A stretch of 64,000 nucleotides of DNA from a bacterium. Lineage in GTDB: Bacteria > Sysuimicrobiota > Sysuimicrobiia > Sysuimicrobiales > Segetimicrobiaceae. The notes under the pieces are model-generated. The model made no database searches. It saw only the letters and a list, made by a program, of their open reading frames with translations, and was not told where the DNA came from. This document shows positions 7,290 through 63,110 of the stretch, in pieces (within the stretch, counting starts at the first letter, position 1; the number at the start of each line of letters is the position of its first letter). Location: contig DATGFS010000003.1 of the NCBI GenBank assembly GCA_035308905.1, forward strand, positions 418 to 64,417. The letters run 5' to 3'. The position numbers and the translations under genes are program-made.

Positions 7290-8457
7290 TGTAGAACTGC
7301 CGGATGGCCTCCGCGACGTAGCCGATATCGTTGGCGTCGAGCGTCTGGTAGCAGGGCAACGTCAGGATCGTCTGCGCGAGCCGCTCCGTGACGGGGAACG
7401 TCCCCTCCGGCGCTCCGCAGTGCGGCTGGTAGGCGTGATCGAGATGAATCGGCGTTCCGTACTCCACCATGACGTGGATGCCGCGGGATTCGAGATGGGC
7501 GCGCAGCTCGTCGCGCCGGGGCGTCTGCGCCACGAACCGCATCATCGCATGCTCCGCGTAGGGCTTCGCGGCCGGGAGGGTCAGGTCGTGGCGGAACCGG
7601 CTCAGCAGCGTGCCGTAGAGCGCGGCGTTCTCGCGCCGGCGCGCGTTCCAGCCGTCGAGATACTTGAGCTGGATGCGGCCGATCGCCGAATGGAGCTCGT
7701 TCTGCCGGTAGTTGTAGCCGACCATCTCGATCTGCTGGGCGCGGTAGATATGGTAGGCCTTGTGGCCCTCGAACCACCGGCGGCCGCGGCCGTGGTTGCA
7801 CAGCATCATCGCGGTCTCCCAGACGCGGGCGTCGGAGGTCACCATCATGCCGCCCTCGCCGCCGACCGAGATGCACTTGTTCTGCACGAACGAAAAACAG
7901 CCGGCGTTGCCGAACGTCCCGAGATACCGGCCCTTGTATTTCGCGCCGGCCGCGTGGCAGACGTCCTCCATCACTTTGAGGCCGTGCTTGCGCGCGATCG
8001 CCATCAGCGGGTCCATGTCGACCGGATGCCCGTTCATGTGCACGGGCATGATCGCCTTGGTCCGCGGCGTGATCGCGGCCTCGACCTGGGCGACGTTCAT
8101 GTTGTAGGTGTCCGGCTCGACGTCGACGAGCACCGGCTTGGCGCCGCAGAGGATGATCACGTCGGCGACCGAGGAGAACGTGTTCGGGACCGTGATGACC
8201 TCGTCGCCGGGGCCGACGCCGATCGCCAGCAGCGCGATGTGCATCGCCGCGGTGCCGCTCGACACGTTGACGGCATGCGGCGCGCCGATATAGGCGCAGA
8301 ACTCGTCTTCGAACCGCTTGCCCTCGGACTCTTCGAGCGGGAAGCTGCGAATATACTTGCCGCTTCGCAGCACACGGGTCGCCGCGTCGATCATCTCGTC
8401 GGTCATGACGGGTTTGTAGCGGATCTCTCGGACGGGTGCCTCGCGCGCCATGATCAT
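7282..8457 (-). CDS. DegT/DnrJ/EryC1/StrS-family PLP-dependent aminotransferase (paralog 4)
   Basis: MIMAREAPVREIRYKPVMTDEMIDAATRVLRSG...; PLP-Lys region FSFVQNKCISVGGEGGMM. First gene of the minus-strand operon. Immediately upstream lies an AT-richer 100-bp divergent promoter region. Confidence 0.85.
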   Translation of the reverse strand: MIMAREAPVREIRYKPVMTDEMIDAATRVLRSGKYIRSFPLEESEGKRFEDEFCAYIGAPHAVNVSSGTAAMHIALLAIGVGPGDEVITVPNTFSSVADVIILCGAKPVLVDVEPDTYNMNVAQVEAAITPRTKAIMPVHMNGHPVDMDPLMAIARKHGLKVMEDVCHAAGAKYKGRYLGTFGNAGCFSFVQNKCISVGGEGGMMVTSDARVWETAMMLCNHGRGRRWFEGHKAYHIYRAQQIEMVGYNYRQNELHSAIGRIQLKYLDGWNARRRENAALYGTLLSRFRHDLTLPAAKPYAEHAMMRFVAQTPRRDELRAHLESRGIHVMVEYGTPIHLDHAYQPHCGAPEGTFPVTERLAQTILTLPCYQTLDANDIGYVAEAIRQFYSE

Positions 8458-54671: not shown

Positions 54672-57154
54672 ACGTCCCTCCGTTGGCGGGCCAGCTGCTC
54701 GATGGCGGGCCACGTCCCGATTTGTGCGGCCAAGCGGTCGCGTTCACGGCGCTCGGCGGCGGTGGTGGTGCCGATCAGGTAGTCTTCGGCTATCTCGCGC
54801 AGGACTACGACGCCGCCTTCGCGGCCTTCGAGCAGATCGAGGAGAATCAACACCTCGTTCGAAACGCCGCGCTGCTGCGTCAGGCTCTTCCACAGCATCC
54901 GATGCTGGTCGTTGAGATTCAGCAGCGGCGCAACCCGATCGACATCGGCCGCGCGCGTCAGTACTTTCAGCGGCGCGTTCTCCAAGATGCCGCGGGCGTG
55001 CTCGTTCTCGAAATCCGCGAGACGCTGACTGATGGCCATGATGCCCGCGCCGAACTTCCGGAACCGGCGAAACATTCCGACCAACGACTCCGCGGCGACG
55101 CGATTGAGCAGCGACGCCCAGGTTTCGTCGCTCACCACGTATTTGAGGCGGCCCGAATCCGCGCGCACCCGTTGGTAGATCAAATGGTTGGCCAGCAGCG
55201 CGACGATCGGCGTCAACTCGGGATATTGCTCGTCGAGCCCCTCGGTGTCGAAACAGACGACGTCGGCGCGGAGGTCCACGCTGGACGGACGGTCCAGGAG
55301 CCGGCCGTACACCCCATCGCCGACCCACAACTCGAGTCGGCCGGCGATGTCCCGCGCGGCGCGCCAGTCGTCGACGCCGGTCTCGCGGCCGCCGGCCTGC
55401 TCGAAGGTGCGCAGCGTGTGGCAAAGGTCGTGCAGGTAGACGGACGCCCCGGCGGCGCGGGCATAGGTCTGGCGAATCCCCGCGTCGATGAGCGCCATTT
55501 CCCGGCGTCCCGGCGCGTCGCCCGGCTCGGCGACCATGAGCGCGATGAGGGACCGCAGAAGTCCAAGGTGCGCGGAGTCCGGTTCCGTCTCGCCGGGCAA
55601 GAGAGCAAACGGGTTGATCGAGACCTCGGCGCCAGGATCGATCTGAACATATTGGCCGCGGTACACCTCGCAAAACGTGCGATATGCCCCGCCTTTGTCG
55701 ACGACGAAGACGATGGGATCCAGCACAAGGAGACGCGACAGCCAAGCGAGCGCAAAATGAGTCTTGCCGCCGCCGGACTCACCGACGACGATCGCGTTCC
55801 ACGAGGGCAGCCGCGGATCGAACGGGTCGAGGCCCACCAGAGTGTGCGCCCGCGTCGTGAACAGACACACCGGCCGCGCGGCGCCGCGCCAGGGCGCGGC
55901 GCAGGGAACGAAGTCCGCGGCGTTGCTCGTCAGCATGCGGAGGAGGCGCTCGTTCGGCAGTCCGCTAAACGGGGCGAGCTGAAAGAACTGCCGCCGAAGC
56001 GCGACCGATTCGATCCGGGCGTCCACACCGGGAATCTGCCGGAACGCGTCGAGCGCGCGCCGGGCCGCTTCGCGCGCCAGCTCGGGGGTCCGTTCCTGGA
56101 CCACCACGGCGACACCGACTCGCATCACGCGCTCGCTGGTCAGCTGCATCAGGTCTAGAGCGTCGGCGATCTGCTGCTCGACCGCGCGGGCGTTGGAGTC
56201 CCCGCCGTCCTGCGCAAGAACGGCCTGACGGCTCAACCGGCTCTTCAGTTCAAGCCGTTTCAGTTGGTCCGACCGCCGGTCGTTCCAGGCCTCCACGACG
56301 AGCCAGTACGTGCCGGGTAGTTCGAGGAGCGGGGCGACCACGTTCGGCGTCGTCGGCTGGTCGGGCAGCACGTCCATCGCAATAACGGCGTGCGCGAAAC
56401 CGTCCATCCACAAGAAGTCCCAGCGGCGGTAGAGATCCGACCGCACGACGGCGGTCCGCAGCGAGCTTCGACCGAAGGACGACGACGCGCCAAGTAATTG
56501 CCGGGGAATCTCGAGCGGCGTATCGGGCGGGACGGCCGGAGGGGCGCTCCGTCCTTTCCGTCCGGGGTTGAAGAAACGCCAGATCAGCGCGGTCAGCTCG
56601 GCATCATCGAGCGGCCGCGCGTCGAACCCGCATCGGGCACAGTGGGTCACCATCACCTCGCGCAGGGCGCGGAGCTCGACCTGGTGGAGCCGGTAGGCGC
56701 CGGCATCGACCGGGGTCCACCACCGTCGGGGGCGGCTGGCGGGATGGTAGGACAGGTCGAGAATGAGACGATAGTTGGTGAAGCGGCCGGCCTCATGTGT
56801 TCCGGCGAGCGCGGCCGCCCGGCGGCGGTGAAGATCGAGCACGCGCTCGTCTCGCGCGCCGCCGGCGACCGCAGCGTGGGCGCGCAAGACGTCCCGGCAG
56901 TCGTCGTGCACCTCGAGCAGAACACGAAGGCATTCGCCTTCCGGGACGGCGGCGTTGAGCAGCACGCGCAGATGCTCGTTGCTTCGAGTCAGCTGCGTGG
57001 CGTCCCACACTTCGGTTCCCGGAAGAGTCAGATCGAAGCCGAGCCGGTAACTGCCGTCGCGAAGCACCACGGCGCCGTCCCGCACCGCCCAATACGGCAG
57101 CTCGCGGGTCAGATTGCCGGGCAGATCTATCGGCCGCACCGGTGGCTCATACAA
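54662..57154 (-). CDS. Type IV secretion ATPase VirB4/TrbE/CagE family
   Basis: Walker A NAIVVGESGGGKTHFALAWLS. 830 aa; overall layout of VirB4. Confidence 0.85.
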   Translation of the reverse strand: MYEPPVRPIDLPGNLTRELPYWAVRDGAVVLRDGSYRLGFDLTLPGTEVWDATQLTRSNEHLRVLLNAAVPEGECLRVLLEVHDDCRDVLRAHAAVAGGARDERVLDLHRRRAAALAGTHEAGRFTNYRLILDLSYHPASRPRRWWTPVDAGAYRLHQVELRALREVMVTHCARCGFDARPLDDAELTALIWRFFNPGRKGRSAPPAVPPDTPLEIPRQLLGASSSFGRSSLRTAVVRSDLYRRWDFLWMDGFAHAVIAMDVLPDQPTTPNVVAPLLELPGTYWLVVEAWNDRRSDQLKRLELKSRLSRQAVLAQDGGDSNARAVEQQIADALDLMQLTSERVMRVGVAVVVQERTPELAREAARRALDAFRQIPGVDARIESVALRRQFFQLAPFSGLPNERLLRMLTSNAADFVPCAAPWRGAARPVCLFTTRAHTLVGLDPFDPRLPSWNAIVVGESGGGKTHFALAWLSRLLVLDPIVFVVDKGGAYRTFCEVYRGQYVQIDPGAEVSINPFALLPGETEPDSAHLGLLRSLIALMVAEPGDAPGRREMALIDAGIRQTYARAAGASVYLHDLCHTLRTFEQAGGRETGVDDWRAARDIAGRLELWVGDGVYGRLLDRPSSVDLRADVVCFDTEGLDEQYPELTPIVALLANHLIYQRVRADSGRLKYVVSDETWASLLNRVAAESLVGMFRRFRKFGAGIMAISQRLADFENEHARGILENAPLKVLTRAADVDRVAPLLNLNDQHRMLWKSLTQQRGVSNEVLILLDLLEGREGGVVVLREIAEDYLIGTTTAAERRERDRLAAQIGTWPAIEQLARQRRDVCG

Positions 57155-57470
57155 TGTACGGGTTCACGTCCTGATCCGCGCCGAGGACGTATGCGTTCGG
57201 TTCGCCGACGAACTCCATAAAATGCCTGAGGAAATGGCGCGGCGCCCGCTCGCGCAGCCGCCGCCATACAGCAAACACCAACCCCGTGGCGCAGGCGGAT
57301 ACCGCGGCCTCGGCCCGAGGCCACCCCATGGCGCGTCCCACAAACAAGTCGCTCAGTCTGGACAGCACGACAAAGGCTACGCCGAGTCCGAACCAGTCCT
57401 CCAGTTCTACGCCCAAGAGCGTGACCGGAGCATCCAACTTCCGGTAGACGACATGGCGGGGCAGCATCAC
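57147..57470 (-). CDS. VirB3/TrbD-like small membrane protein
   Basis: 107 aa with a hydrophobic segment WFGLGVAFVVLSRL. Lies immediately upstream of VirB4 and overlaps it by 8 nt, the usual VirB3 position. Confidence 0.5.
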   Translation of the reverse strand: MMLPRHVVYRKLDAPVTLLGVELEDWFGLGVAFVVLSRLSDLFVGRAMGWPRAEAAVSACATGLVFAVWRRLRERAPRHFLRHFMEFVGEPNAYVLGADQDVNPYIV

Positions 57471-57488
57471 CGACCCTCGTCCGTGGCA

Positions 57489-57791
57489 TTATCCGTGGAT
57501 CATGCGGATGATCTGCCCGCCGAAAAACAACACGACGGAACCGATGATGACCCACAACGCGTTTCGAATGCCGTTGCGGTGGTCCGCGATGATGACGGCC
57601 CCGGCCACTAGCAGCGCAGCCGTGGCATATGCCAGGCCGAAAGCACCGGACAGGCTGAGCGCGGCCTGGTTGAATAGGTTCGTGAGCGGCGCGAAGAGAT
57701 CGCCGCCCGTGGATCCGGGGGTCTGGGCATGGGCGCGAACTTGCGCAACCAGCACAATCACGACTGCGAGGCCGGGGGGCGTCAATCGCAT
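57489..57791 (-). CDS. VirB2/TrbC-like pilin
   Basis: 100 aa: signal peptide MRLTPPGLAVVIVLVAQVRAHAQT, then two hydrophobic helices (GAFGLAYATAALLVAGAVIIA; ALWVIIGSVVLFFGGQII), the T4SS pilin architecture. Confidence 0.6.
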   Translation of the reverse strand: MRLTPPGLAVVIVLVAQVRAHAQTPGSTGGDLFAPLTNLFNQAALSLSGAFGLAYATAALLVAGAVIIADHRNGIRNALWVIIGSVVLFFGGQIIRMIHG

Positions 57792-57792
57792 T

Positions 57793-59121
57793 TCAGTGCG
57801 CCTCTGTCACCAAAATGATGCACCGGGTCCCGGCCGGGATCTCAAGTGTTTCGACGACCGCCCCTGACGTCTGAGGGTTCAACGTATCGGCAAGGCGCGA
57901 AGCGGCATATGTCCATCCCGGTGCCGCCCCGCCGACAGACACCTGGGTCGCACCGTCGGCCACGGTAACCTGGGCCGCACGCGCCAGCGCCTGCAGGTAG
58001 TCCGAAACGGCCAGCACCACGGCGCGGATGGCCGACGCCGCCGCAGCCCGGCGGCGAATGACGACCCGGCCGGACAGCCCATCCGACAGCGAGTCCGGGT
58101 CAAGCGCGACGCCGCTCACAGGTCCGCCGGCCGTCCGCGATCCGCCGGACCCGCCACCGGCGTCGCGGTCCGCGGTCTGGAATGAAATGTGCACCCGTCC
58201 GTCTGGTTCGGCCTCGGCGTGACCGAGCCAAGACGACCCGTCCACTCCCTCCGCGATGACGGGTACCGGAGGCACGCCGGCCGCCACGACGACGCCGGTC
58301 GCAAGCCGCGCCGCGAGCTGATCGCCGACTTTCCGTGCACCGGCTCGCATGCCGCGAACTTCTTCGGTCGTGCTCGCGCGCAATGTGGGTGCCGCCCCGG
58401 TGTCGCCCCCCGCATTACGGGCATATACCACCGGAGAGCGCGGCGCGGCGTCGACGTTGGGTGACGGGATGCCGCTCGACTCGGGCATACGGTTGAAAAC
58501 GATCGACGGTGAAAGTGCTCTCTCGACGGCGCCTGTTCCCGAGAGAACAGACGGAAGCGGCAGAACGGGCACAGGCGGCAGCTGCGAAAGCGAGCGCATT
58601 GCGGGGGCGGGCGGCACAGCCGGCAGCGCCGTCCGCCCCCGCATCCACAGCAGTGTGCCCCGCACGGTGCCCGGAGCAACCGCGGGCGTTGCTTCGTGCG
58701 TGGAGCTGCCGGCCCGGTGCAGCGCGCCGACCGGCGCCGGCGAGATCGACGTGCGGTGGGAACGGGTCAGCAGCGAGGACGCGCCGGCGGCTACCAGCAG
58801 GACGGCGGCAAGGCCGAGCGGCACCGTCGCCGCGACGCGCCGTTTTGCGAGGAGCCGGTCACCGGCGTCGCTTTCGTACTCACCCCATCCGAACAGCGCG
58901 CGACGCAGAACCGTGCGTCGGTGACGGCGGTGCAATACCCGCTCGCTGTCGAGCCGGATGTCCGACCCCGAGAGTTGATCCAGCACTTCGGAATAGAGGT
59001 CAGGCGCCGCCTCGGCGAGGCGCGCCAAGACCTGGGGCACCGCTGCCGGCGAGAGGTCTACGGAATCGCCCAGAACCGCGCGAATGCGGGAGGCGGATTC
59101 GGGAGCGAGCACGATTTCCAC
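57793..59121 (-). CDS. Bitopic membrane protein of unknown function, first gene of the T4SS operon
   Basis: About 100-aa cytoplasmic N-terminus, one TM (ATVPLGLAAVLLVAAGASSLL), and a Pro/Ala/Ser-rich periplasmic region. Ends ...LEIPAGTRCIILVTEAH. Confidence 0.4.
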   Translation of the reverse strand: MEIVLAPESASRIRAVLGDSVDLSPAAVPQVLARLAEAAPDLYSEVLDQLSGSDIRLDSERVLHRRHRRTVLRRALFGWGEYESDAGDRLLAKRRVAATVPLGLAAVLLVAAGASSLLTRSHRTSISPAPVGALHRAGSSTHEATPAVAPGTVRGTLLWMRGRTALPAVPPAPAMRSLSQLPPVPVLPLPSVLSGTGAVERALSPSIVFNRMPESSGIPSPNVDAAPRSPVVYARNAGGDTGAAPTLRASTTEEVRGMRAGARKVGDQLAARLATGVVVAAGVPPVPVIAEGVDGSSWLGHAEAEPDGRVHISFQTADRDAGGGSGGSRTAGGPVSGVALDPDSLSDGLSGRVVIRRRAAAASAIRAVVLAVSDYLQALARAAQVTVADGATQVSVGGAAPGWTYAASRLADTLNPQTSGAVVETLEIPAGTRCIILVTEAH

Positions 59122-59233
59122 GTCGCGCCTCCTGAGATGCTTTTATGTTTAGATGTTCACACATCACTATAGAGCAGGGCCAGCCTACGTCAAGAGGCGA
59201 ACGCTTGCTCCTGAACGAACGAGAAAAATTGTC
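59122..59233. promoter_or_regulatory. AT-rich divergent promoter region between T4SS operon (-) and Lon-like protease gene (+)
   Basis: ...tgcttttatgtttagatgttcacacatcactatagagcagggccagcctacgtcaagaggcgaacgcttgctcctgaacgaacgagaaaaattgtcATG. This is the lowest-GC intergenic stretch in the second half of the window. Confidence 0.4.
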
Positions 59234-61858
59234 ATGTCCACCTCCCTCGGTGACGACCGGCAGCTAAGCCCCGACGCGCTCCGCCGCCGCAGCGACCCGG
59301 CGAGCCTCGGGTTTCAGACCACCGCCGAATTGCAATCGGACGGCGGGCCGCGCCTCGTGGGCCAGCCGCGGGCGGTGCGCGCGCTCGACTTCGGGCTGCG
59401 CGTCGACCAGCCGGGCTACAACGTCTTCATGAGCGGGCCGCCCGGTACGGGGCGCATGACCTACGCGCGCTCGGCGGTCGAGGAGGCCGCCCGCGGAGGC
59501 CGCGTGCCGCCGGACTGGTGCTACGTCCGCAACTTCGCCGCGCCGAGCCAGCCGATCGCGATCATGCTGCCCTCCGGGATCGGCCGCAAGTTCCAGCGCG
59601 ACGTGCGGGAGTTGCTCGTCGAGATCCGGGAGGGGCTCCGCCAGGCGTTCACGAGCGAGCTCTATGAGCGCCGGCGCGCGGAGGTCGTGAAGCGCTACGA
59701 GCAGCGGGTGGGCCAGATCTGGGAGGGGCTCGAGGCCGAGGCGCGCACGAGGGGCCTCATGCTGCAGCGGACCCCGACCGGCATCGCCACGGTCCCCGTT
59801 GACCTGCAGGGCAAGCCCATCCCCGAGGAAGTCTTCAACCAGCTGCCTGAGGCCGACCGGACGAAGCTGCAACAACGCACGACCGAGCTCGGCGACGCGG
59901 TGACCGAGGCGCTGCGGCAGGTGCGCGCGCTCGAGCGCGAAGGCCGCGACGCCCTCCGCGACCTCGAGCGGCAGACCGCCCAGTACATGATCGACGCGCC
60001 GGTGGCGCGGCTCCGCGAGCAGTACGCGGACCACCTGCGGGTCCTCACGTACTTCGACGCCTTGAAGCAGGACATGCTCGACCATCTCTCCGAGATCACC
60101 CAGACCGGCGACGAGGAAGGCGGCGGGAGGCCGTCCGTCGAGATGCCGGGCATGCCGCGGCGCGACCCCTTCGCCCGCTACCAGGTCAACCTGCTCGTGG
60201 ATCACGCCGACACCAAAGGCGCGCCGGTCATCGTCGAAACCAACCCGACCTACTACAACCTCGTCGGCCGGGCCGAACTGCGCGTGGAGTTCGGCGCGCT
60301 CGTCACCGACCTCACGATGATCAAGCCGGGCGCGCTGCACCTCGCGAACGGGGGCTACCTGATCCTGCACGTGCGGGACGTGCTGACGAGCCCGTTCGCG
60401 TACGAGGGGCTCAAGCGCGCGCTGCGCGGGCGCGAGATCCGCATCGAGCCGCTCGGGGAAGCGGCCGGCATGCTGCCGACGGCGACCCTGCGGCCCGACC
60501 CGATCCCGCTCGACCTCAAGGTCATCCTGGTCGGCACCCCCTACCTCTACCACGCGCTCTACGCGCTCGACGAGGACTTCGAGCAGCTGTTCAAGATCCG
60601 GGCCGATTTCGACACCGTGGTCGAGCGCACGCCGGAGACGATGCGGGAGTACGCGCGGGCCATCGCCGGGATCGCGCGGCGCTGCGGGATCTGCGAGTTC
60701 GACGCGGGGGCCGTCGCGGAGGTCATCGACCACGGGGCGCGCGTCGCCGGCGAGCAGGACAAGCTCAGCACCCGCTTCAACGAGGTCACCGAGATCGTCT
60801 TCGAAGCGGCCACCTGGGCCAAGCAGGCCGGGCGGACCGTCGCGACGCGCGACGACGTCCGGCGCGCGGTCGATGAGAAGGCGCTCCGCAGCAACCTCAT
60901 CGAGGAGAAGATCCGCGAGGCAATCGAGACCGGGCAGATCCTCGTCGACATCCAGGGCAAGGTCACGGGCCAGATCAACGGGCTCGCCGTGCTGCAGTTG
61001 GGGGACTACATGTTCGGACAGCCGAGCCGGATCACCGCGCGTGTGCACGTCGGCTCCCGCGGCGTCGTCAACATCGAGCGGGAGACGCAGATGTCGGGCA
61101 AGATCCACACCAAAGGCGTGTTTGTCCTGTCGTCGTTCTTCGCCAGCCGGTTCGCGCAGCAGGCGCCGCTCAGCCTCTCGGCCTCTCTCACCTTCGAACA
61201 GCTCTACTCGGAAGTCGACGGGGACAGCGCGAGCTCAACCGAACTGTACGCGCTCCTCAGCGAGCTCTCCGGGATCCCGATCGACCAGGGCATCGCCACG
61301 ACGGGGTCGGTCAACCAGCGGGGCGAGATTCAGCCGATCGGCGGCGTCAACGAAAAGATCGAGGGCTTCTACTACACGTGCAAGGCGCGGGAGCTCACGG
61401 GCCGCCAGGGCGTGATCATCCCTCACCAAAACGTCCGCAACCTGATGCTGCGAGAGGAAGTCGTCGACGCGGTGCGCAGCGGCAAATTCCACGTATGGAC
61501 GGCGCGGACGGTCGACGACGGCATCGAGATCTTGACGGGGGTCCGGGCCGGGGCGCCGGATGCGAACGGCGCCTACCCACCGGACACGATCAACGGACGG
61601 GTCGTGGCACGGCTGGCCGACCTGGCGCAGCGCCTCCGGCAGTTTGGCGACCGCCGCGACAACATCCGGGAGACGATCATCATGCAGGGCGGTCCCGCAG
61701 CCCCGCCGGTGCCGGGCCCGCCGCCCGGGCCGCCCGAACCGCCCCCGCCCGGCAGTCCCCCCCCCGAGCCGCCGCCGCCTGGGCCGCCGCCCGGCGGTCC
61801 GCCGCCGACGTTGCTCACCGATCGAGGTACGGGAGAACCCGAGCCGTTCGGGCCGTAA
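59234..61858 (+). CDS. LonC-type Lon-like protease (AAA+-like module with degenerate Walker A, S16 Ser-Lys protease domain, proline-rich C-terminal tail)
   Basis: Start MSTSLGDDRQL. Walker A-like FMSGPPGTGRMTY has Arg in place of the canonical Lys. Long helical insertion. The C-terminal S16 domain (...GQINGLAVLQLGDYMFGQPSRITARVHVG...VDGDSASSTELYALLSELSGIPIDQGIATTGSVNQRGEIQPIGGVNEKIEGF...) retains the catalytic Ser and Lys. The last roughly 55 aa are Pro-rich (PAAPPVPGPPPGPPEPPPPGSPPPEPPPPGPPPGGPPP). Confidence 0.8.
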   Translation: MSTSLGDDRQLSPDALRRRSDPASLGFQTTAELQSDGGPRLVGQPRAVRALDFGLRVDQPGYNVFMSGPPGTGRMTYARSAVEEAARGGRVPPDWCYVRNFAAPSQPIAIMLPSGIGRKFQRDVRELLVEIREGLRQAFTSELYERRRAEVVKRYEQRVGQIWEGLEAEARTRGLMLQRTPTGIATVPVDLQGKPIPEEVFNQLPEADRTKLQQRTTELGDAVTEALRQVRALEREGRDALRDLERQTAQYMIDAPVARLREQYADHLRVLTYFDALKQDMLDHLSEITQTGDEEGGGRPSVEMPGMPRRDPFARYQVNLLVDHADTKGAPVIVETNPTYYNLVGRAELRVEFGALVTDLTMIKPGALHLANGGYLILHVRDVLTSPFAYEGLKRALRGREIRIEPLGEAAGMLPTATLRPDPIPLDLKVILVGTPYLYHALYALDEDFEQLFKIRADFDTVVERTPETMREYARAIAGIARRCGICEFDAGAVAEVIDHGARVAGEQDKLSTRFNEVTEIVFEAATWAKQAGRTVATRDDVRRAVDEKALRSNLIEEKIREAIETGQILVDIQGKVTGQINGLAVLQLGDYMFGQPSRITARVHVGSRGVVNIERETQMSGKIHTKGVFVLSSFFASRFAQQAPLSLSASLTFEQLYSEVDGDSASSTELYALLSELSGIPIDQGIATTGSVNQRGEIQPIGGVNEKIEGFYYTCKARELTGRQGVIIPHQNVRNLMLREEVVDAVRSGKFHVWTARTVDDGIEILTGVRAGAPDANGAYPPDTINGRVVARLADLAQRLRQFGDRRDNIRETIIMQGGPAAPPVPGPPPGPPEPPPPGSPPPEPPPPGPPPGGPPPTLLTDRGTGEPEPFGP

Positions 61859-61865
61859 GCCCGCC

Positions 61866-62465
61866 TTAACTCCGTGACGGCCGACGGTGCGCGACCTGCG
61901 GCATCGGGGCCGTTCGCCGCGGGCCGGTCCGGCCCGAAAGCAGGAGGCCGATCCGGGTGTAGACACGGCGGAGCCCGATCGTCGTATTGGGATCGTCGAC
62001 GCCCCGCCGCGTCAGGTAGTCGTGTAGCACGCAAAGCAGCATGCCCGACGACATCCGGTTGAGCAGGCGGCGGCTCGCGCGGGCGACCGCCTCCATCTCC
62101 ACGATCTGCTCCTCGAGCACGTCGTCGTCGAGATCTTCGCCCGCGCGCTGCCGGCGGGCGTGCACGAGCTCGTGCAGGATCGTGAACTGCTTCTCCGGCG
62201 CGGGCAGGCCCGCTTCCACCCAGATCTCGTTGCCGTCGTCGCCCATATTGAGCAGGCCGTCGAAGGTCGTATCCGGACTCAGCGGGATGTCCGTCAGTTG
62301 ACGGGCGAGCGTGCGAAACCGTCTCAGGTACTTCTCGCGAATCACATAGGAACGCTTCGGGAGCCGCGTGAGGCGGGCGGCCCGCTTTTTGGAGCGAATA
62401 AGAACGACCCCGCGCGTCGCAGGACGCCTCAGGCGCACCGCGCGGATCCGTGTCTTGCGCGACAT
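61866..62465 (-). CDS. ImmA/IrrE-family (DUF955) zinc metallopeptidase
   Basis: HExxH motif in FTILHELVHARRQRAGEDLDDDVLEEQIVEMEA. Start MSRKTRIRAV... (ATG 62465 after GGGAGGA). 199 aa. No HTH/XRE partner gene is adjacent. Confidence 0.7.
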   Translation of the reverse strand: MSRKTRIRAVRLRRPATRGVVLIRSKKRAARLTRLPKRSYVIREKYLRRFRTLARQLTDIPLSPDTTFDGLLNMGDDGNEIWVEAGLPAPEKQFTILHELVHARRQRAGEDLDDDVLEEQIVEMEAVARASRRLLNRMSSGMLLCVLHDYLTRRGVDDPNTTIGLRRVYTRIGLLLSGRTGPRRTAPMPQVAHRRPSRS

Positions 62466-62717
62466 ACGTCCTCCCACACGAATCGGTGCAAACGATTACC
62501 GGGCGAAACGAGCGCCCGGCGCGGAATGTTCCACCGGGACGGGGGAACCCCGATCAGGTGTTCGTGGCCGCGCCGATATCGCTACCCGGTGTATTCCCCG
62601 GACGCGGACCGGCCGTGGCGCGCTTCCGGCGGAGGATCGAGGGGCGGTCGAGACGTTGCATCGGACAAAAGATAGAGGGGCCGGAGAACCCCGGCCCCCA
62701 AACACCGCTTCTGTTCT

Positions 62718-62882
62718 TTAGGCGTCTTTCGCCATTTTCATTACTTCTTCGCGTGGAACTCCTTGCGGAAAGTCCTTGCTGTGCGCGTGTTTGACGTGCA
62801 CGTTCACAACCTCGACCAACTCATCAACGGTATGGACTTTGAATTCAGCTCCACAAGGACTGGGGCATGTGATCTTCTTCAT
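62718..62882 (-). CDS. DUF1059-family small metal-binding protein (54 aa), low-GC mini-ORF not in the supplied ORF track
   Basis: Hand translation gives MKKITCPSPCGAEFKVHTVDELVEVVNVHVKHAHSKDFPQGVPREEVMKMAKDA*, preceded by GGGAGGTGATCC. The M-K-K-I-x-C-x-x-x-C-G-x-E motif plus a His-rich centre matches DUF1059. GC content is clearly below the local average. Confidence 0.6.
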   Translation of the reverse strand: MKKITCPSPCGAEFKVHTVDELVEVVNVHVKHAHSKDFPQGVPREEVMKMAKDA

Positions 62883-63002
62883 GGATCACCTCCCTTGTCG
62901 GCTCTCAGAGCGACCGATTAGAAGACGCACGCCGGATTCCTTCCGAGCGACTGCCACGTAAGCCTTTGCAGGGCTTCAGCGTCCTATGTTAATGTGGGGA
63001 CG

Positions 63003-63081
63003 GCCCCGATCGTCTAGGTCGGCCTAGGACATCGGCCCTTCAAGCCGGTAACGCGGGTTCAAATCCCGCTCGGGGCACCAT
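63003..63081 (+). tRNA. tRNA-Glu (anticodon UUC)
   Basis: Hand-folded cloverleaf: acceptor GCCCCGA/TCGGGGC, D-arm GTCT-AGGTCGGCCTA-GGAC, anticodon stem TCGGC/GCCGG with loop CCTTCAA, T-arm GCGGG-TTC(C)AAAT-CCCGC, discriminator A, encoded CCA. Overall similar to bacterial tRNA-Glu. T-loop length and position 33 are uncertain by 1 nt in my reading. Confidence 0.75.
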
Positions 63082-63110
63082 CCAACATGCCGCCTTTCTT
63101 CCGCGAGGTC

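What the first reader, a model, noticed from the sequence alone, without database searches (positions are those of the whole stretch)
59234..61858. LonC-type protease with Lys-to-Arg Walker A and a 55-aa polyproline-rich C-terminal tail, divergent from the T4SS operon
The Walker A reads GPPGTGRMT, with Arg replacing the catalytic Lys. From memory this matches the ATPase-dead LonC class described in Meiothermus. The S16 Ser-Lys dyad region is intact, so it is probably an ATP-independent protease. The tail PAAPPVPGPPPGPPEPPPPGSPPPEPPPPGPPPGGPPP is unusual for Lon-family proteins; it could be a PPII spacer or protein-interaction tail, for example binding SH3-like domains, or a tether. Lon-like proteases occur in phage-defence systems such as BrxL in BREX. 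Its position in a mobile-element context next to an ImmA/IrrE peptidase raises the possibility of a regulatory or defence role.
Basis: partly seen in the sequence, partly recalled or inferred. Interest (0 to 1): 0.6.

Follow-up and report, generated by a model that had tools for sequence, protein, structure and literature searches.

The report
LonC protease with proline-rich tail
This gene encodes an ordinary member of the known LonC family of ATP-independent Lon-like proteases that, in one uncultured bacterial lineage, has gained a disordered proline-rich tail and sits next to an old chromosomal type IV secretion gene cluster; nothing indicates a phage-defence role.

Summary
The ORF at 59234-61858 (+) encodes an 874-aa protein with the full LonC architecture. 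Its best sequence and fold match is Meiothermus LonC. The Ser665-Lys708 dyad is intact, the P-loop reads GPPGTGRMT, and residues 806-874 form a disordered tail with 29 prolines.

- Meiothermus LonC keeps the Walker A lysine. Arg at that position is the majority state in the family (242 of 347 sequences), so it is not distinctive.
- Predicted ATPase loss rests at least as much on the Walker B site (H379-V380), which is never "DE" anywhere in the family.
- The tail is neither strain-specific nor family-wide. It marks one subclade (at least 79% identity, about 20 clusters), varies by 10-aa units, and has dN/dS of 0.2-0.7 against 0.1-0.2 for the core.
- The divergent neighbour is a VirB10-like protein, the first gene of a T4SS operon.
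- LonC-T4SS adjacency defines one clade of 72 sequences and looks vertically inherited. LonC survives two T4SS losses, has core-like codon usage, and sits in unrelated contexts in 80 of 80 wider homolog loci.
- There is no BrxL or other defence signal, and the ImmA/IrrE call is sub-threshold.

Verdict: a new member of a known kind, of low to moderate interest.

The parts
59234..61858 (+). LonC-subfamily Lon-like protease CDS (874 aa plus stop)
   Evidence: Pfam LonC_helical, AAA_32, LonB_AAA-LID and Lon_C. MtaLonC match at E=7.5e-90. Foldseek top hit 8k8v_A at E=2e-43, TMt 0.77. No TM segment: maximum Kyte-Doolittle 19-aa mean is 1.09.
59435..59461 (+). Degenerate P-loop (Walker A-like) GPPGTGRMT with Arg74 in place of Lys
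   Evidence: Coordinates verified. Arg is invariant in 121 of 121 close homologs. Family-wide counts are 242 Arg, 99 Lys and 6 other.
59579..60103 (+). Helical-hairpin extension (HHE) inserted in the AAA-like alpha/beta domain, with a beta-hairpin at aa 175-189
   Evidence: The AF2 model has helices 116-172 and 206-288 and strands 175-180 and 183-189, mostly at pLDDT 81-95. Fold match to the MtaLonC N-terminal fragment 4fwv, TMt 0.82. The HHE is described.
60350..60379 (+). Walker B-like strand GGYLILHVRD with no acidic pair (His379, Val380)
   Evidence: The 'Glu' position is never acidic in 347 sequences. The 'Asp' position is Q, H or N in the close clade.
61226..61228 (+). Catalytic Ser665, preceded by Asp664 as in LonB and LonC
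   Evidence: Aligned to MtaLonC S582. Invariant in 347 of 347.
61355..61357 (+). Catalytic Lys708
   Evidence: Aligned to MtaLonC K625. Invariant in 347 of 347.
61379..61402 (+). LonC-specific insertion 1, CKARELTG (consensus CX3GLX(G/E))
   Evidence: Cys, Leu and the final Gly fit the consensus. Position 720 is Glu here but Gly in 117 of 121.
61460..61474 (+). LonC-specific insertion 2, VVDAV (consensus phi-X2-A-phi)
61649..61855 (+). Disordered C-terminal extension (aa 806-874) with a poly-Pro core PGPPPGPPEPPPPGSPPPEPPPPGPPPGGPPP
   Evidence: 29 Pro in 69 aa. AF2 pLDDT below 50 with no secondary structure. Imperfect 15-nt periodicity. Present only in the clade at least 79% identical. dN/dS 0.17-0.68.
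59166..59193 (-). Sigma-70-like promoter TTGACG-16-TATAGT reading into the T4SS operon
   Evidence: 10 of 12 matches, against 0.2 expected. The core of both hexamers (TTGAC and TATA) is invariant in six loci spanning 64-86% LonC identity.
59189..59202 (.). Invariant 14-nt block GTCAAGAGGCGAAC in the divergent intergenic region; it overlaps the -35 element
   Evidence: Invariant in all six aligned loci. Coordinates verified. Function unknown.
57793..59121 (-). VirB10-like T4SS core protein, first gene of the divergent operon
   Evidence: No Pfam hit. AF2 gives an N-terminal helical domain, a TM helix at 93-117, a disordered linker at 120-255, and a C-terminal beta domain with a helix-loop-helix. 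The top six Foldseek hits are all T4SS outer-membrane core-complex chains of VirB10-CTD length, E=4e-6 to 3e-4; the next hit has E above 1.
50003..57791 (-). Rest of the T4SS operon: TrbC/VirB2 57489-57791, VirB3-like 57147-57470, VirB4/TraC 54662-57154, 360-aa and 347-aa (weak VirB6/TrbL) proteins, a roughly 207-aa protein, and T4CP 50003-52033
   Evidence: The same order is seen in L001, L004, L005, L008, L089, L091 and L092.
61866..62477 (-). M78-like HExxH protein, convergent with LonC
   Evidence: Pfam M78 at E=3e-4, 21 bits against a cut-off of 22. PHROG metalloprotease at E=7e-4. No PDB hit. Conserved next to LonC in 7 of 9 related loci, displaced about 3 kb in L008 and absent from L006.
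63003..63080 (+). tRNA-Glu(TTC), a conserved landmark on the 3' side of the block
   Evidence: Present at the equivalent place in all nine related loci and absent from three outgroup loci.

Best explanation
The gene encodes a soluble cytoplasmic LonC-subfamily protease. By homology to Meiothermus LonC it should form a ring-shaped (hexameric or heptameric) chamber. The helical-hairpin 'basket' would capture unfolded polypeptides, and the Ser665-Lys708 dyad would cleave them without ATP hydrolysis. ATP hydrolysis is unlikely because the AAA-like module has lost the Walker A lysine (Arg74) and both Walker B acidic residues (His379, Val380). The P-loop may still bind phosphate or nucleotide as a structural or allosteric ligand. 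The last 69 residues are an intrinsically disordered, probably PPII-like, proline-rich extension that arose by expansion of a short Pro/Gly-rich C-terminus in one subclade. It is kept under weak purifying selection. The most likely role is a flexible spacer or bristle on the outside of the protease ring, possibly a low-affinity docking element. Its many PPP/PPG motifs would also make synthesis depend on EF-P. The position next to the T4SS operon reflects a single ancient juxtaposition in the ancestor of this lineage, inherited vertically since. LonC is best read as a resident quality-control or stress protease, not as cargo of a mobile element or a defence gene. Shown here: family membership, motif states, tail distribution and selection, neighbour identity, and synteny history. 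Inferred: oligomer state, ATP independence, tail conformation and role, and absence of functional coupling to the T4SS.
For: Family:
- Pfam gives the four-domain LonC architecture.
- phmmer against MtaLonC gives E=7.5e-90 with the dyad aligned.
- The Foldseek top 10 hits are all MtaLonC, best 8k8v_A at E=2e-43 and TMt 0.77.
- Both LonC-specific insertions and the Asp before the catalytic Ser are present.
- An HHE with a beta-hairpin is predicted, and there is no TM segment.

ATPase loss:
- Arg74 is invariant in 121 close homologs.
- Walker B is H/Q/N followed by a hydrophobic residue, and the Glu position is never acidic in 347 sequences.
- MtaLonC and TTC1975, which carry a milder degeneration, have no measurable ATPase activity.

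Tail:
- It is disordered in the AF2 model.
- It occurs only in the clade at least 79% identical: all 20 full-length sequences including the query have at least 46 aa and at least 18 Pro, and the 21st entry is truncated. Median tail length elsewhere is 0-11 aa.
- It shows a 10-aa unit indel and dN/dS of 0.17-0.68 against 0.09-0.19 for the core, with dS of 0.2-1.5.
- It is an outlier in the local proteome.

Context:
- The T4SS is adjacent in 8 distinct loci spanning 64-100% LonC identity. VirB4 identity tracks LonC identity at 88/72/71% against 84/70/66%.
- VirB10-linked LonCs form one 72-tip NJ clade, and all verified-unlinked homologs fall outside it.
- LonC persists in L090 and L006, where the T4SS is gone.
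- LonC GC3 is 0.93, like core genes at 0.89-0.95, while the T4SS genes are at 0.75-0.82.
- None of 80 wider LonC loci, from many phyla, has a T4SS, VirB10-like or M78-like gene within 10 kb.
- The same tRNA-Glu flanks all nine related loci, and the same TauE-ECH-aminotransferase genes flank seven of them.
Against: - No biochemistry was done. ATP independence, oligomer state and substrate class are extrapolated from a homolog with about 27% structure-aligned identity.
- The adjacency has been kept over deep divergence (dS near or beyond saturation). The divergent intergenic region holds an invariant 14-nt block and a conserved promoter, so co-regulation with the T4SS is not excluded.
- The M78-like gene on the other side has T4SS-like GC3 (0.83). 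LonC could therefore lie inside an old island rather than beside it.
- Whether these genomes carry a second LonC copy could not be checked.
- The tail dN/dS rests on only 30-45 synonymous sites and could be biased by GC-driven codon constraints.
- The AF2 protease domain is low-confidence at residues 575-665.
Confidence: 0.7

Rival explanations
1. LonC has been recruited as a dedicated accessory of the T4SS. It would be co-regulated from the shared divergent promoter region. It would act as a regulatory protease or chaperone for a T4SS component, repressor or substrate, with the poly-Pro tail or the M78-like peptidase as part of that module.
For: The divergent arrangement with the VirB10-like first gene is kept in 8 distinct loci down to 64% LonC identity. 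VirB10-like and LonC share a contig in at least 21 further clusters, judged by matching contig lengths. The intergenic region has an invariant 14-nt block and conserved promoter hexamers. The M78-like gene is kept beside LonC even in T4SS-less L090.
Against: LonC, and in L090 the tail too, persists after loss of the T4SS in two lineages. The tail is absent from the 69-70% tier, which still has the T4SS, so tail and T4SS are uncoupled. LonC has core-like GC3. Flanking housekeeping genes and tRNA-Glu are just as syntenic, so conserved adjacency alone does not show coupling. LonC orthologs in 80 of 80 wider loci have no T4SS. No paper in the library combines all three search terms for Lon-like proteases and T4SS or conjugation.
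Confidence: 0.15
2. It is an anti-phage or anti-MGE defence protease: BrxL-like, or a Lon-type effector working with the ImmA-like peptidase.
For: Lon-like domains occur in BrxL. The nearby DEAD/MZB helicase matches PADLOC helicase models including BrxHI, DruE and DrmA at E around 1e-42 to 1e-19. The M78-like protein has a weak PADLOC hit, PDC-M69B, at E=0.002.
Against: LonC has no PADLOC hit at E up to 0.01. BrxL (8emh) ranks 44th by fold with TMt 0.17, against 0.77 for MtaLonC. The helicase hits cover only the generic helicase core and match many unrelated systems at once; its Pfam architecture of DEAD, Helicase_C, WHD_HRQ1 and MZB is the MrfA repair-helicase type. No PglZ, PglX, BrxA/B/C or other partner genes lie between 41 and 64 kb. 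The gene is vertically inherited and syntenic, unlike typical defence islands.
Confidence: 0.03
3. The poly-Pro tail is functionally neutral. It would be a slippage-prone GC-rich low-complexity expansion, or read-through after stop-codon loss, that is merely tolerated at the C-terminus.
For: The tail is absent outside one subclade. It shows a 10-aa unit copy-number difference and a variable distal end. It has imperfect 15-nt periodicity. Its dN/dS is 2-5 times higher than the core. It has no predicted structure.
Against: dN/dS stays below 1 (0.17-0.68) despite dS of 0.2-1.5. The motif PGPPP-PPEPPPPG is kept in the six sequences aligned and, with single substitutions, across all ~20 clusters. 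It is retained in every full-length member of the clade. Six EF-P-dependent PPP runs would be costly if useless (general knowledge of polyproline stalling).
Confidence: 0.12

Closest known systems
MtaLonC / TTC1975 (LonC subfamily, MEROPS S16.007; Meiothermus taiwanensis, Thermus thermophilus)
   Same: Same four-part architecture: N-terminal helical region, an AAA-like alpha/beta domain carrying the HHE insertion, a lid, and an S16 protease domain. Same Ser-Lys dyad with Asp before the Ser. Both LonC-specific protease-domain insertions are present. The AAA+ motifs are degenerate, the protein is soluble, and MtaLonC is the top sequence and fold match.
   Different: Sequence identity is only about 27% over the structure alignment. 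Walker A has Arg where MtaLonC keeps Lys (GPPGTGRMT against GPPSLGKHE). Walker B has lost the Asp as well (LILHV against LILDA). Insertion 1 has Glu where the consensus has Gly. There is a 69-aa disordered poly-Pro C-terminal extension. The source is a high-GC (about 70%) MAG from environmental metagenomes, whereas the characterised LonCs come from thermophiles. The gene sits next to a T4SS operon.
Archaeal LonB (TonLonB, AfLonB)
   Same: AAA_32 and LonB_AAA-LID domains, Asp before the catalytic Ser, and second-best structural match (3k1j, E=2e-24).
   Different: There is no membrane-anchoring insertion; an HHE occupies that place and no TM segment is found. The Walker motifs are non-canonical. 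The TIGR00764 score of 125.6 bits is far below its 516.6 cut-off.
BrxL (BREX Lon-like AAA+ factor)
   Same: Distant sharing of the AAA+ and Lon-like folds (8emh_L, E=1.4e-6).
   Different: TMt is 0.17, there is no PADLOC BrxL hit, no BREX genes are nearby, and this protein has an intact dyad and an HHE.
Proline-rich spacers and tails in other bacterial proteins, such as the TonB (EP)n(KP)n spacer, the VirB10 Pro-rich region, and the GroEL C-terminal tails reported to adopt PPII
   Same: A low-complexity Pro-rich segment with E-P or K-P periodicity, predicted to be unstructured or PPII and attached to an oligomeric machine. The TonB and VirB10 comparison comes from general knowledge; the GroEL tail paper was only listed.
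   Different: No homology is implied. Here the segment is at the extreme C-terminus of a cytoplasmic protease ring, not a periplasm-spanning linker, and its function is untested.

Membership tests
LonC subfamily of Lon proteases (Liao et al. 2012; MEROPS S16.007) | S16 protease domain with a Ser-Lys catalytic dyad, and Asp (not Pro) before the Ser | tested here: met
   D664-S665 and K708 align to MtaLonC S582/K625. Both are invariant in 347 of 347.
LonC subfamily of Lon proteases (Liao et al. 2012; MEROPS S16.007) | Insertion CX3GLX(G/E) in the alpha3-beta9 loop after the catalytic Lys | tested here: met
   C716-KAR-E-L-T-G723. The length and the Cys, Leu and terminal Gly fit the consensus. 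Position 720 is Glu here and Gly in 117 of 121 relatives.
LonC subfamily of Lon proteases (Liao et al. 2012; MEROPS S16.007) | Insertion phi-X2-A-phi in helix alpha5 | tested here: met
   V743-V-D-A-V747, conserved.
LonC subfamily of Lon proteases (Liao et al. 2012; MEROPS S16.007) | Helical-hairpin extension (HHE) inserted in the AAA-like alpha/beta domain in place of the LonB membrane anchor; soluble protein | tested here: met
   Pfam LonC_helical. AF2 helices 116-172 and 206-288 with a beta-hairpin at 175-189. Fold match to 4fwv, TMt 0.82, and to full-length 8k8v. No TM segment.
LonC subfamily of Lon proteases (Liao et al. 2012; MEROPS S16.007) | Non-canonical Walker A and Walker B motifs (loss of ATP-hydrolysis residues) | tested here: met
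   Arg74 replaces Lys. His379-Val380 replace Asp-Glu. The Glu position is never acidic in the family.
LonC subfamily of Lon proteases (Liao et al. 2012; MEROPS S16.007) | Sensor-1 and sensor-2 replaced and Arg finger disrupted | not tested
   This needs a residue-level alignment to TonLonB, which was not made here.
LonC subfamily of Lon proteases (Liao et al. 2012; MEROPS S16.007) | No ATPase activity; ATP-independent cleavage of unfolded substrates; chaperone activity | not testable with these tools
   A biochemical property, inferred from motif loss and from MtaLonC and TTC1975 data.
BrxL (BREX) | Match to BrxL profile models | tested here: not met
   No PADLOC hit at E up to 0.01. The 8emh fold match ranks 44th with TMt 0.17.
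BrxL (BREX) | Genomic association with BREX core genes (PglZ, PglX, BrxA/B/C) | tested here: not met
   None is found among the genes between 41 and 64 kb. Only a generic helicase-core match to BrxHI appears, on an MrfA-type helicase.
Archaeal-type LonB (TIGR00764) | Score above the curated cut-off; membrane-anchoring insertion; canonical Walker motifs | tested here: not met
   125.6 bits against a 516.6 cut-off. No TM segment. Walker motifs are degenerate.
Bacillus sporulation proteases LonB and 'LonC' (TIGR02902 / TIGR02903) | Score above the curated cut-off | tested here: not met
   47.2 and 50.7 bits against cut-offs of 723 and 679. The shared name 'LonC' is a coincidence of nomenclature.
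ImmA/IrrE (Peptidase_M78), for the neighbour at 61866-62477 | Pfam M78 match above the gathering score | tested here: inconclusive
   21.0 bits against 22 (E=3e-4). An HExxH motif is present. Homologs also score only 'weak' or 'faint'. No PDB hit.
ImmA/IrrE (Peptidase_M78), for the neighbour at 61866-62477 | Adjacent cognate HTH (XRE/ImmR/DdrO-type) repressor gene | tested here: not met
   No HTH gene flanks it in the window or in the seven related loci where it lies directly beside LonC; its flanks in L008 carry only genes with no Pfam hit.
VirB10/TrbI, for the neighbour at 57793-59121 | Bitopic topology: cytoplasmic N-terminus, one TM helix, a Pro-rich linker, and a C-terminal beta-barrel with a helix-loop-helix antenna | tested here: met
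   The AF2 model. The top six Foldseek hits are T4SS outer-membrane core-complex chains of VirB10-CTD length, at probability 1.00. The sequence-level Pfam TrbI model does not hit.

The most novel reading that the evidence does not exclude
In this lineage a normally free-standing, ATP-independent LonC chaperone-protease has been captured as a fixed partner of a chromosomal T4SS. It would share a conserved bidirectional control region with the VirB10-first operon. In one subclade it would have gained a PPII tail that tethers the ring to the secretion machine or envelope-associated partners. That would be a Lon-family protease acting as a dedicated T4SS quality-control or gating factor.
Probability: 0.08. 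Interest if true: 0.55.

Novelty: new member of a known kind. Interest (0 to 1): 0.25.

Why it matters
LonC proteases have been characterised only in two thermophiles, and MEROPS listed eight members in 2022. This work shows the family is large: 2336 representatives at E below 1e-30. It is spread across many bacterial phyla and some archaeal groups (Bathyarchaeia, Thermoproteota, Methanomethylicia), and Arg is the usual residue at the Walker A 'lysine' position. That is useful for annotation and for understanding how the dead AAA module is used. The poly-Pro tail gives a clean natural variant for asking what a disordered C-terminal appendage does to a ring protease. The long-held adjacency to a T4SS is a testable, though currently weak, lead on regulation. 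None of this overturns current understanding.

Tried and rejected
- BrxL or a defence role: rejected on PADLOC, fold rank and missing partner genes.
- LonB and the Bacillus sporulation LonB/'LonC': scores are far below the NCBIfam cut-offs.
- Tail as a frameshift or annotation artefact: rejected. It is in frame, conserved at the protein level across about 20 clusters with synonymous divergence, and has dN/dS below 1.
- Tail as a marker of T4SS linkage: rejected. The 69-70% tier has the T4SS without the tail, and L090 has the tail without the T4SS.
- T4SS-LonC-M78 as a tRNA-integrated island: rejected. The block lies on the 5' side of tRNA-Glu in all nine loci, the variable DNA is on the 3' side, and the only tRNA-like direct repeat is a 17-nt 82-88% match, at a level the repeat tool itself flags as often chance.
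- My early idea that the VirB10-like protein is a LonC-specific partner because it survives T4SS loss: weakened. It has a VirB10 fold, T4SS-like GC3, and both losses stop at the same trbC codon.
- Rfam on 58900-63200 found only the tRNA, so there is no known RNA element in the conserved intergenic region.
- PDB sequence searches with the M78-like protein and the VirB10-like profile gave nothing useful.
The nearest labelled relatives are mostly 'Armatimonadota' or plain 'bacterium', plus one 69%-identical partial labelled 'Planctomycetota'.
- A first MAFFT run timed out.

Full report
**1. What is there**

The window holds an ORF on the + strand ending at 61858, with possible starts at 59153 and 59234. 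The alignment of the upstream region with five related loci, and the gene calls in those loci, support 59234, giving 874 aa. Pfam finds LonC_helical (aa 94-127), AAA_32 (328-460, E=1e-52), LonB_AAA-LID (488-552) and Lon_C (662-763).

The best solved relative is the Lon-like protease MtaLonC/TTC1975, at E=7.5e-90. An AlphaFold model built on 28 homologs has mean pLDDT 74. Its ten best PDB matches are all MtaLonC chains, led by the full-length cryo-EM chain 8k8v_A (E=2e-43, TM 0.77 on the target). Archaeal LonB comes next, and BrxL ranks only 44th with TM 0.17.

The P-loop GPPGTGRMT (aa 68-76), the dyad (Ser665, Lys708) and the quoted tail are all present at the computed coordinates.

**2. Membership in LonC**

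Liao et al. 2012 define LonC by several features: two protease-domain insertions (CX3GLX(G/E) after the catalytic Lys, and phi-X2-A-phi in helix alpha5), non-canonical AAA+ motifs and no ATPase activity. Later work adds the helical-hairpin extension (HHE) and notes Asp rather than Pro before the catalytic Ser.

The query meets these as follows:
- It has CKARELTG and VVDAV at the right places.
- It has Asp664-Ser665.
- It has a predicted HHE with the inward beta-hairpin (strands 175-180 and 183-189).
- It has no hydrophobic segment that could span a membrane.

NCBIfam scores for LonB, LonA and the Bacillus sporulation 'LonB/LonC' are far below their cut-offs. I did not test sensor-1, sensor-2 or the Arg finger. 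ATP independence cannot be tested here.

**3. The Walker A arginine**

It is not. MtaLonC reads GPPSLGKHE and keeps the Lys.

I aligned 347 family members: 120 close hits, 150 representatives at 50% clustering, and proteins from 80 genome loci spread over many phyla. The counts at this position are Arg 242, Lys 99 and other 6. Every sequence at least 55% identical to the query has Arg. Arg is therefore the commoner state of the family and not a peculiarity of this gene.

The Walker B site is more telling. The Glu position is never acidic in any of the 347. The Asp position is acidic in only 69, and it is His in the query (LILHV). With both sites dead, loss of ATP hydrolysis is a safe inference. 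MtaLonC, with milder changes, has no ATPase activity and retains only phosphate binding in the P-loop.

**4. The proline-rich tail**

Residues 806-874 follow the last conserved helix (786-805). They have pLDDT below 50 and no secondary structure. They contain 29 Pro, 11 Gly and 5 Glu, and the densest 40 residues hold 26 Pro. No other called protein in the window exceeds 14 Pro per 40 aa. The DNA shows only imperfect 15-nt periodicity.

Across the family, a tail of at least 46 aa with at least 18 Pro occurs in all 20 full-length members (query included) of the clade at least 79% identical. The 21st entry in that clade is truncated. Such tails occur nowhere else, and median tail length elsewhere is 0-11 aa. 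A few 64-66% relatives carry shorter PPK/PPP-rich ends.

Six DNA sequences from the tail clade show a 10-aa unit present or absent (PPEPPPPG[S/T]P) and a variable distal end. The core motifs PGPPP and PPEPPPPG are invariant among them, and the longer PGPPPG…PPEPPPPG holds with single substitutions across the ~20 clusters. Pairwise dN/dS is 0.17-0.68 in the tail against 0.09-0.19 in the core, with tail dS of 0.2-1.5.

The tail is therefore translated and weakly constrained. It is a clade-level innovation, not a strain-level accident. Its function remains inferred: a flexible PPII-like appendage on the outside of the protease ring. An obvious side-effect is strong EF-P dependence of synthesis.

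**5. The neighbours**

The divergent gene at 57793-59121 has no Pfam hit and only 80 homolog clusters, all from this lineage. Its model shows a helical N-domain, one TM helix (93-117), a 135-aa disordered Pro/Ala/Ser-rich linker, and a confident beta domain with a helix-loop-helix. The six significant PDB fold matches are all T4SS outer-membrane core-complex entries (Dot/Icm dome, R388 Trw, X. citri, F plasmid, H. pylori Cag), and the matched chains have VirB10-CTD length. It is a VirB10-like protein and the first gene of the operon.

That operon continues with TrbC/VirB2, a VirB3-sized protein, VirB4/TraC, three poorly characterised proteins (one weakly VirB6-like) and a VirD4-type coupling protein. 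Beyond it lie a small coiled-coil protein, an MrfA-type DEAD/MZB helicase and ordinary metabolic genes. No relaxase or integrase is seen between 41 and 64 kb.

On the other side of LonC is a convergent 203-aa HExxH protein. Its M78 match is just under Pfam's threshold, and it has no adjacent HTH partner. A tRNA-Glu follows.

**6. History of the adjacency**

I fetched the context of 12 homologs, with these results:
- The same arrangement (T4SS operon, divergent LonC, M78-like gene, tRNA-Glu) is present in eight distinct loci, with LonC 64-92% identical to the query. In L008 a GGDEF gene separates LonC from the M78-like gene.
- Two loci have lost the T4SS but keep the VirB10-like gene, a trbC stub and LonC: L090 (82% identical, tail present, M78-like gene kept) and L006 (64%, no M78-like gene).
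- Three outgroup loci at 57-66% identity have none of these features and no tRNA-Glu. So do all 80 loci from the wider genome scan.

Identities of T4SS proteins track LonC identity. In a neighbour-joining tree, the LonCs known to share a contig with the VirB10-like gene are scattered through one 72-tip clade, and the verified-unlinked ones fall outside it. The tail-bearing sequences form a nested subclade.

LonC has GC3 of 0.93, like the surrounding core genes at 0.89-0.95. The T4SS genes, including the VirB10-like gene, are at 0.75-0.82.

The simplest reading is that a T4SS island landed next to a resident LonC once, in the ancestor of this lineage, and the block has been inherited vertically since. 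The T4SS then decayed occasionally, and the tail arose later. This does not prove functional independence. The 112-bp divergent region carries a conserved sigma-70-like promoter for the T4SS operon and an invariant 14-nt block, so shared regulation remains possible.

**7. Defence hypothesis**

LonC has no PADLOC match. Its only PHROG match is a generic Lon protease-domain family. The helicase matches many PADLOC helicase models at once, over the helicase core only. No partner genes of BREX, DISARM or Druantia are present. In the paper library, none of the listed papers holds 'Lon-like protease' together with the T4SS or conjugation terms.

**8. Verdict**

This is a bona fide LonC-subfamily protease. 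It is more degenerate in its nucleotide site than the characterised enzyme, and it carries a lineage-specific disordered poly-Pro tail. It sits in an anciently fixed position beside a chromosomal T4SS.

It is a new member of a known kind, and I score interest at 0.25. The most novel reading still open is that LonC is a dedicated T4SS-associated factor with the tail as a tether. I put that at about 8%.

**Limitations**
- The tree is a simple NJ tree.
- Part of the co-occurrence evidence rests on matching contig lengths.
- The tail dN/dS uses few sites.
- The source lineage could not be named.
- No biochemical property was tested.

Noticed in passing
window 57793-59121 (-): This 'hypothetical' 442-aa protein has no Pfam hit and only 80 homolog clusters. 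It has a VirB10-like topology and fold: an N-terminal helical domain, a TM helix, a disordered Pro-rich linker, and a beta domain with an antenna-like helix-loop-helix. It therefore looks like a very divergent VirB10/TrbI family confined to this lineage, and it implies a diderm-type T4SS.
   Followed up: yes
L090 about 8369-8420 and L006 about 8400-8440; corresponds to window trbC around 57620: Both T4SS-less loci keep the VirB10-like gene plus the first ~57 codons of trbC. Homology to intact trbC stops at the same codon in both. Both junctions read CGCAATAC and then diverge. In L006 a 516-aa large serine recombinase gene abuts the junction. This looks like a site-specific insertion or deletion hotspot inside trbC.
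   Followed up: partly
window 59122-59233: The divergent LonC/T4SS intergenic region holds a conserved sigma-70-like promoter on the minus strand (TTGACG-16-TATAGT). It also holds a 14-nt block, GTCAAGAGGCGAAC, that is invariant across loci whose LonC is only 64-86% identical. A GATGT-N4-ACATC inverted repeat sits in the promoter spacer of the window. There is no Rfam match, and no obvious Shine-Dalgarno sequence precedes the LonC start.
   Followed up: partly
window 49455-49964 (-), repeats at 49554-49817: A 169-aa proline-free coiled-coil protein lies between the MrfA-type helicase and the coupling protein. It is built from six or more tandem 33-nt (11-aa) repeats and has the lowest GC3 in the region (0.66). 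L001 has only a 67-aa gene at the equivalent place.
   Followed up: no
window 63003-63080 and the downstream sequence; L001, L004, L005, L089-L092: tRNA-Glu(TTC) is conserved 3' of the LonC block in all nine related loci, but the DNA just beyond its 3' end differs. The window has a glycolipid-binding protein, L001 and L089 have an ankyrin-repeat protein, and others run directly into TauE. This suggests the tRNA's 3' side is an integration hotspot. (In L004 a Cupin gene lies on the tRNA's 5' side, between the M78-like gene and the tRNA.)
   Followed up: partly
window 47065-49377 (-): A DEAD/Helicase_C/WHD_HRQ1/MZB (MrfA-type) helicase sits directly next to the T4SS coupling-protein end. It is 88-96% identical over the part seen in four of the five close loci (L001, L004, L089, L091) and absent from L090. 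It matches PADLOC helicase models (DruE, BrxHI, SngC, DrmA) only over the generic helicase core.
   Followed up: partly
window 50003-59121: The T4SS gene set is minimal: VirB10-like, VirB2, VirB3-like, VirB4, two or three unknown proteins, a weak VirB6-like protein and T4CP. No relaxase, VirB11, VirB9 or VirB7 is recognisable by Pfam. Its GC3 is 0.75-0.82 against about 0.9 for neighbouring core genes. Its substrate, DNA or protein, is unknown.
   Followed up: no
LonC family at large: The family is far larger and more widely spread than the literature suggests; MEROPS listed 8 members in 2022. Here there are 2336 representatives at E below 1e-30, including Bathyarchaeia, Thermoproteota and Methanomethylicia archaea. 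The Walker A position flips between Lys and Arg many times across the family.
   Followed up: partly
window 53631-54713 (-): The 360-aa T4SS protein of unknown family has the second most Pro-rich stretch in the window, with 14 Pro in 40 aa near residue 50. It evolves fast, at 42-73% identity where VirB4 is 71-92%.
   Followed up: no
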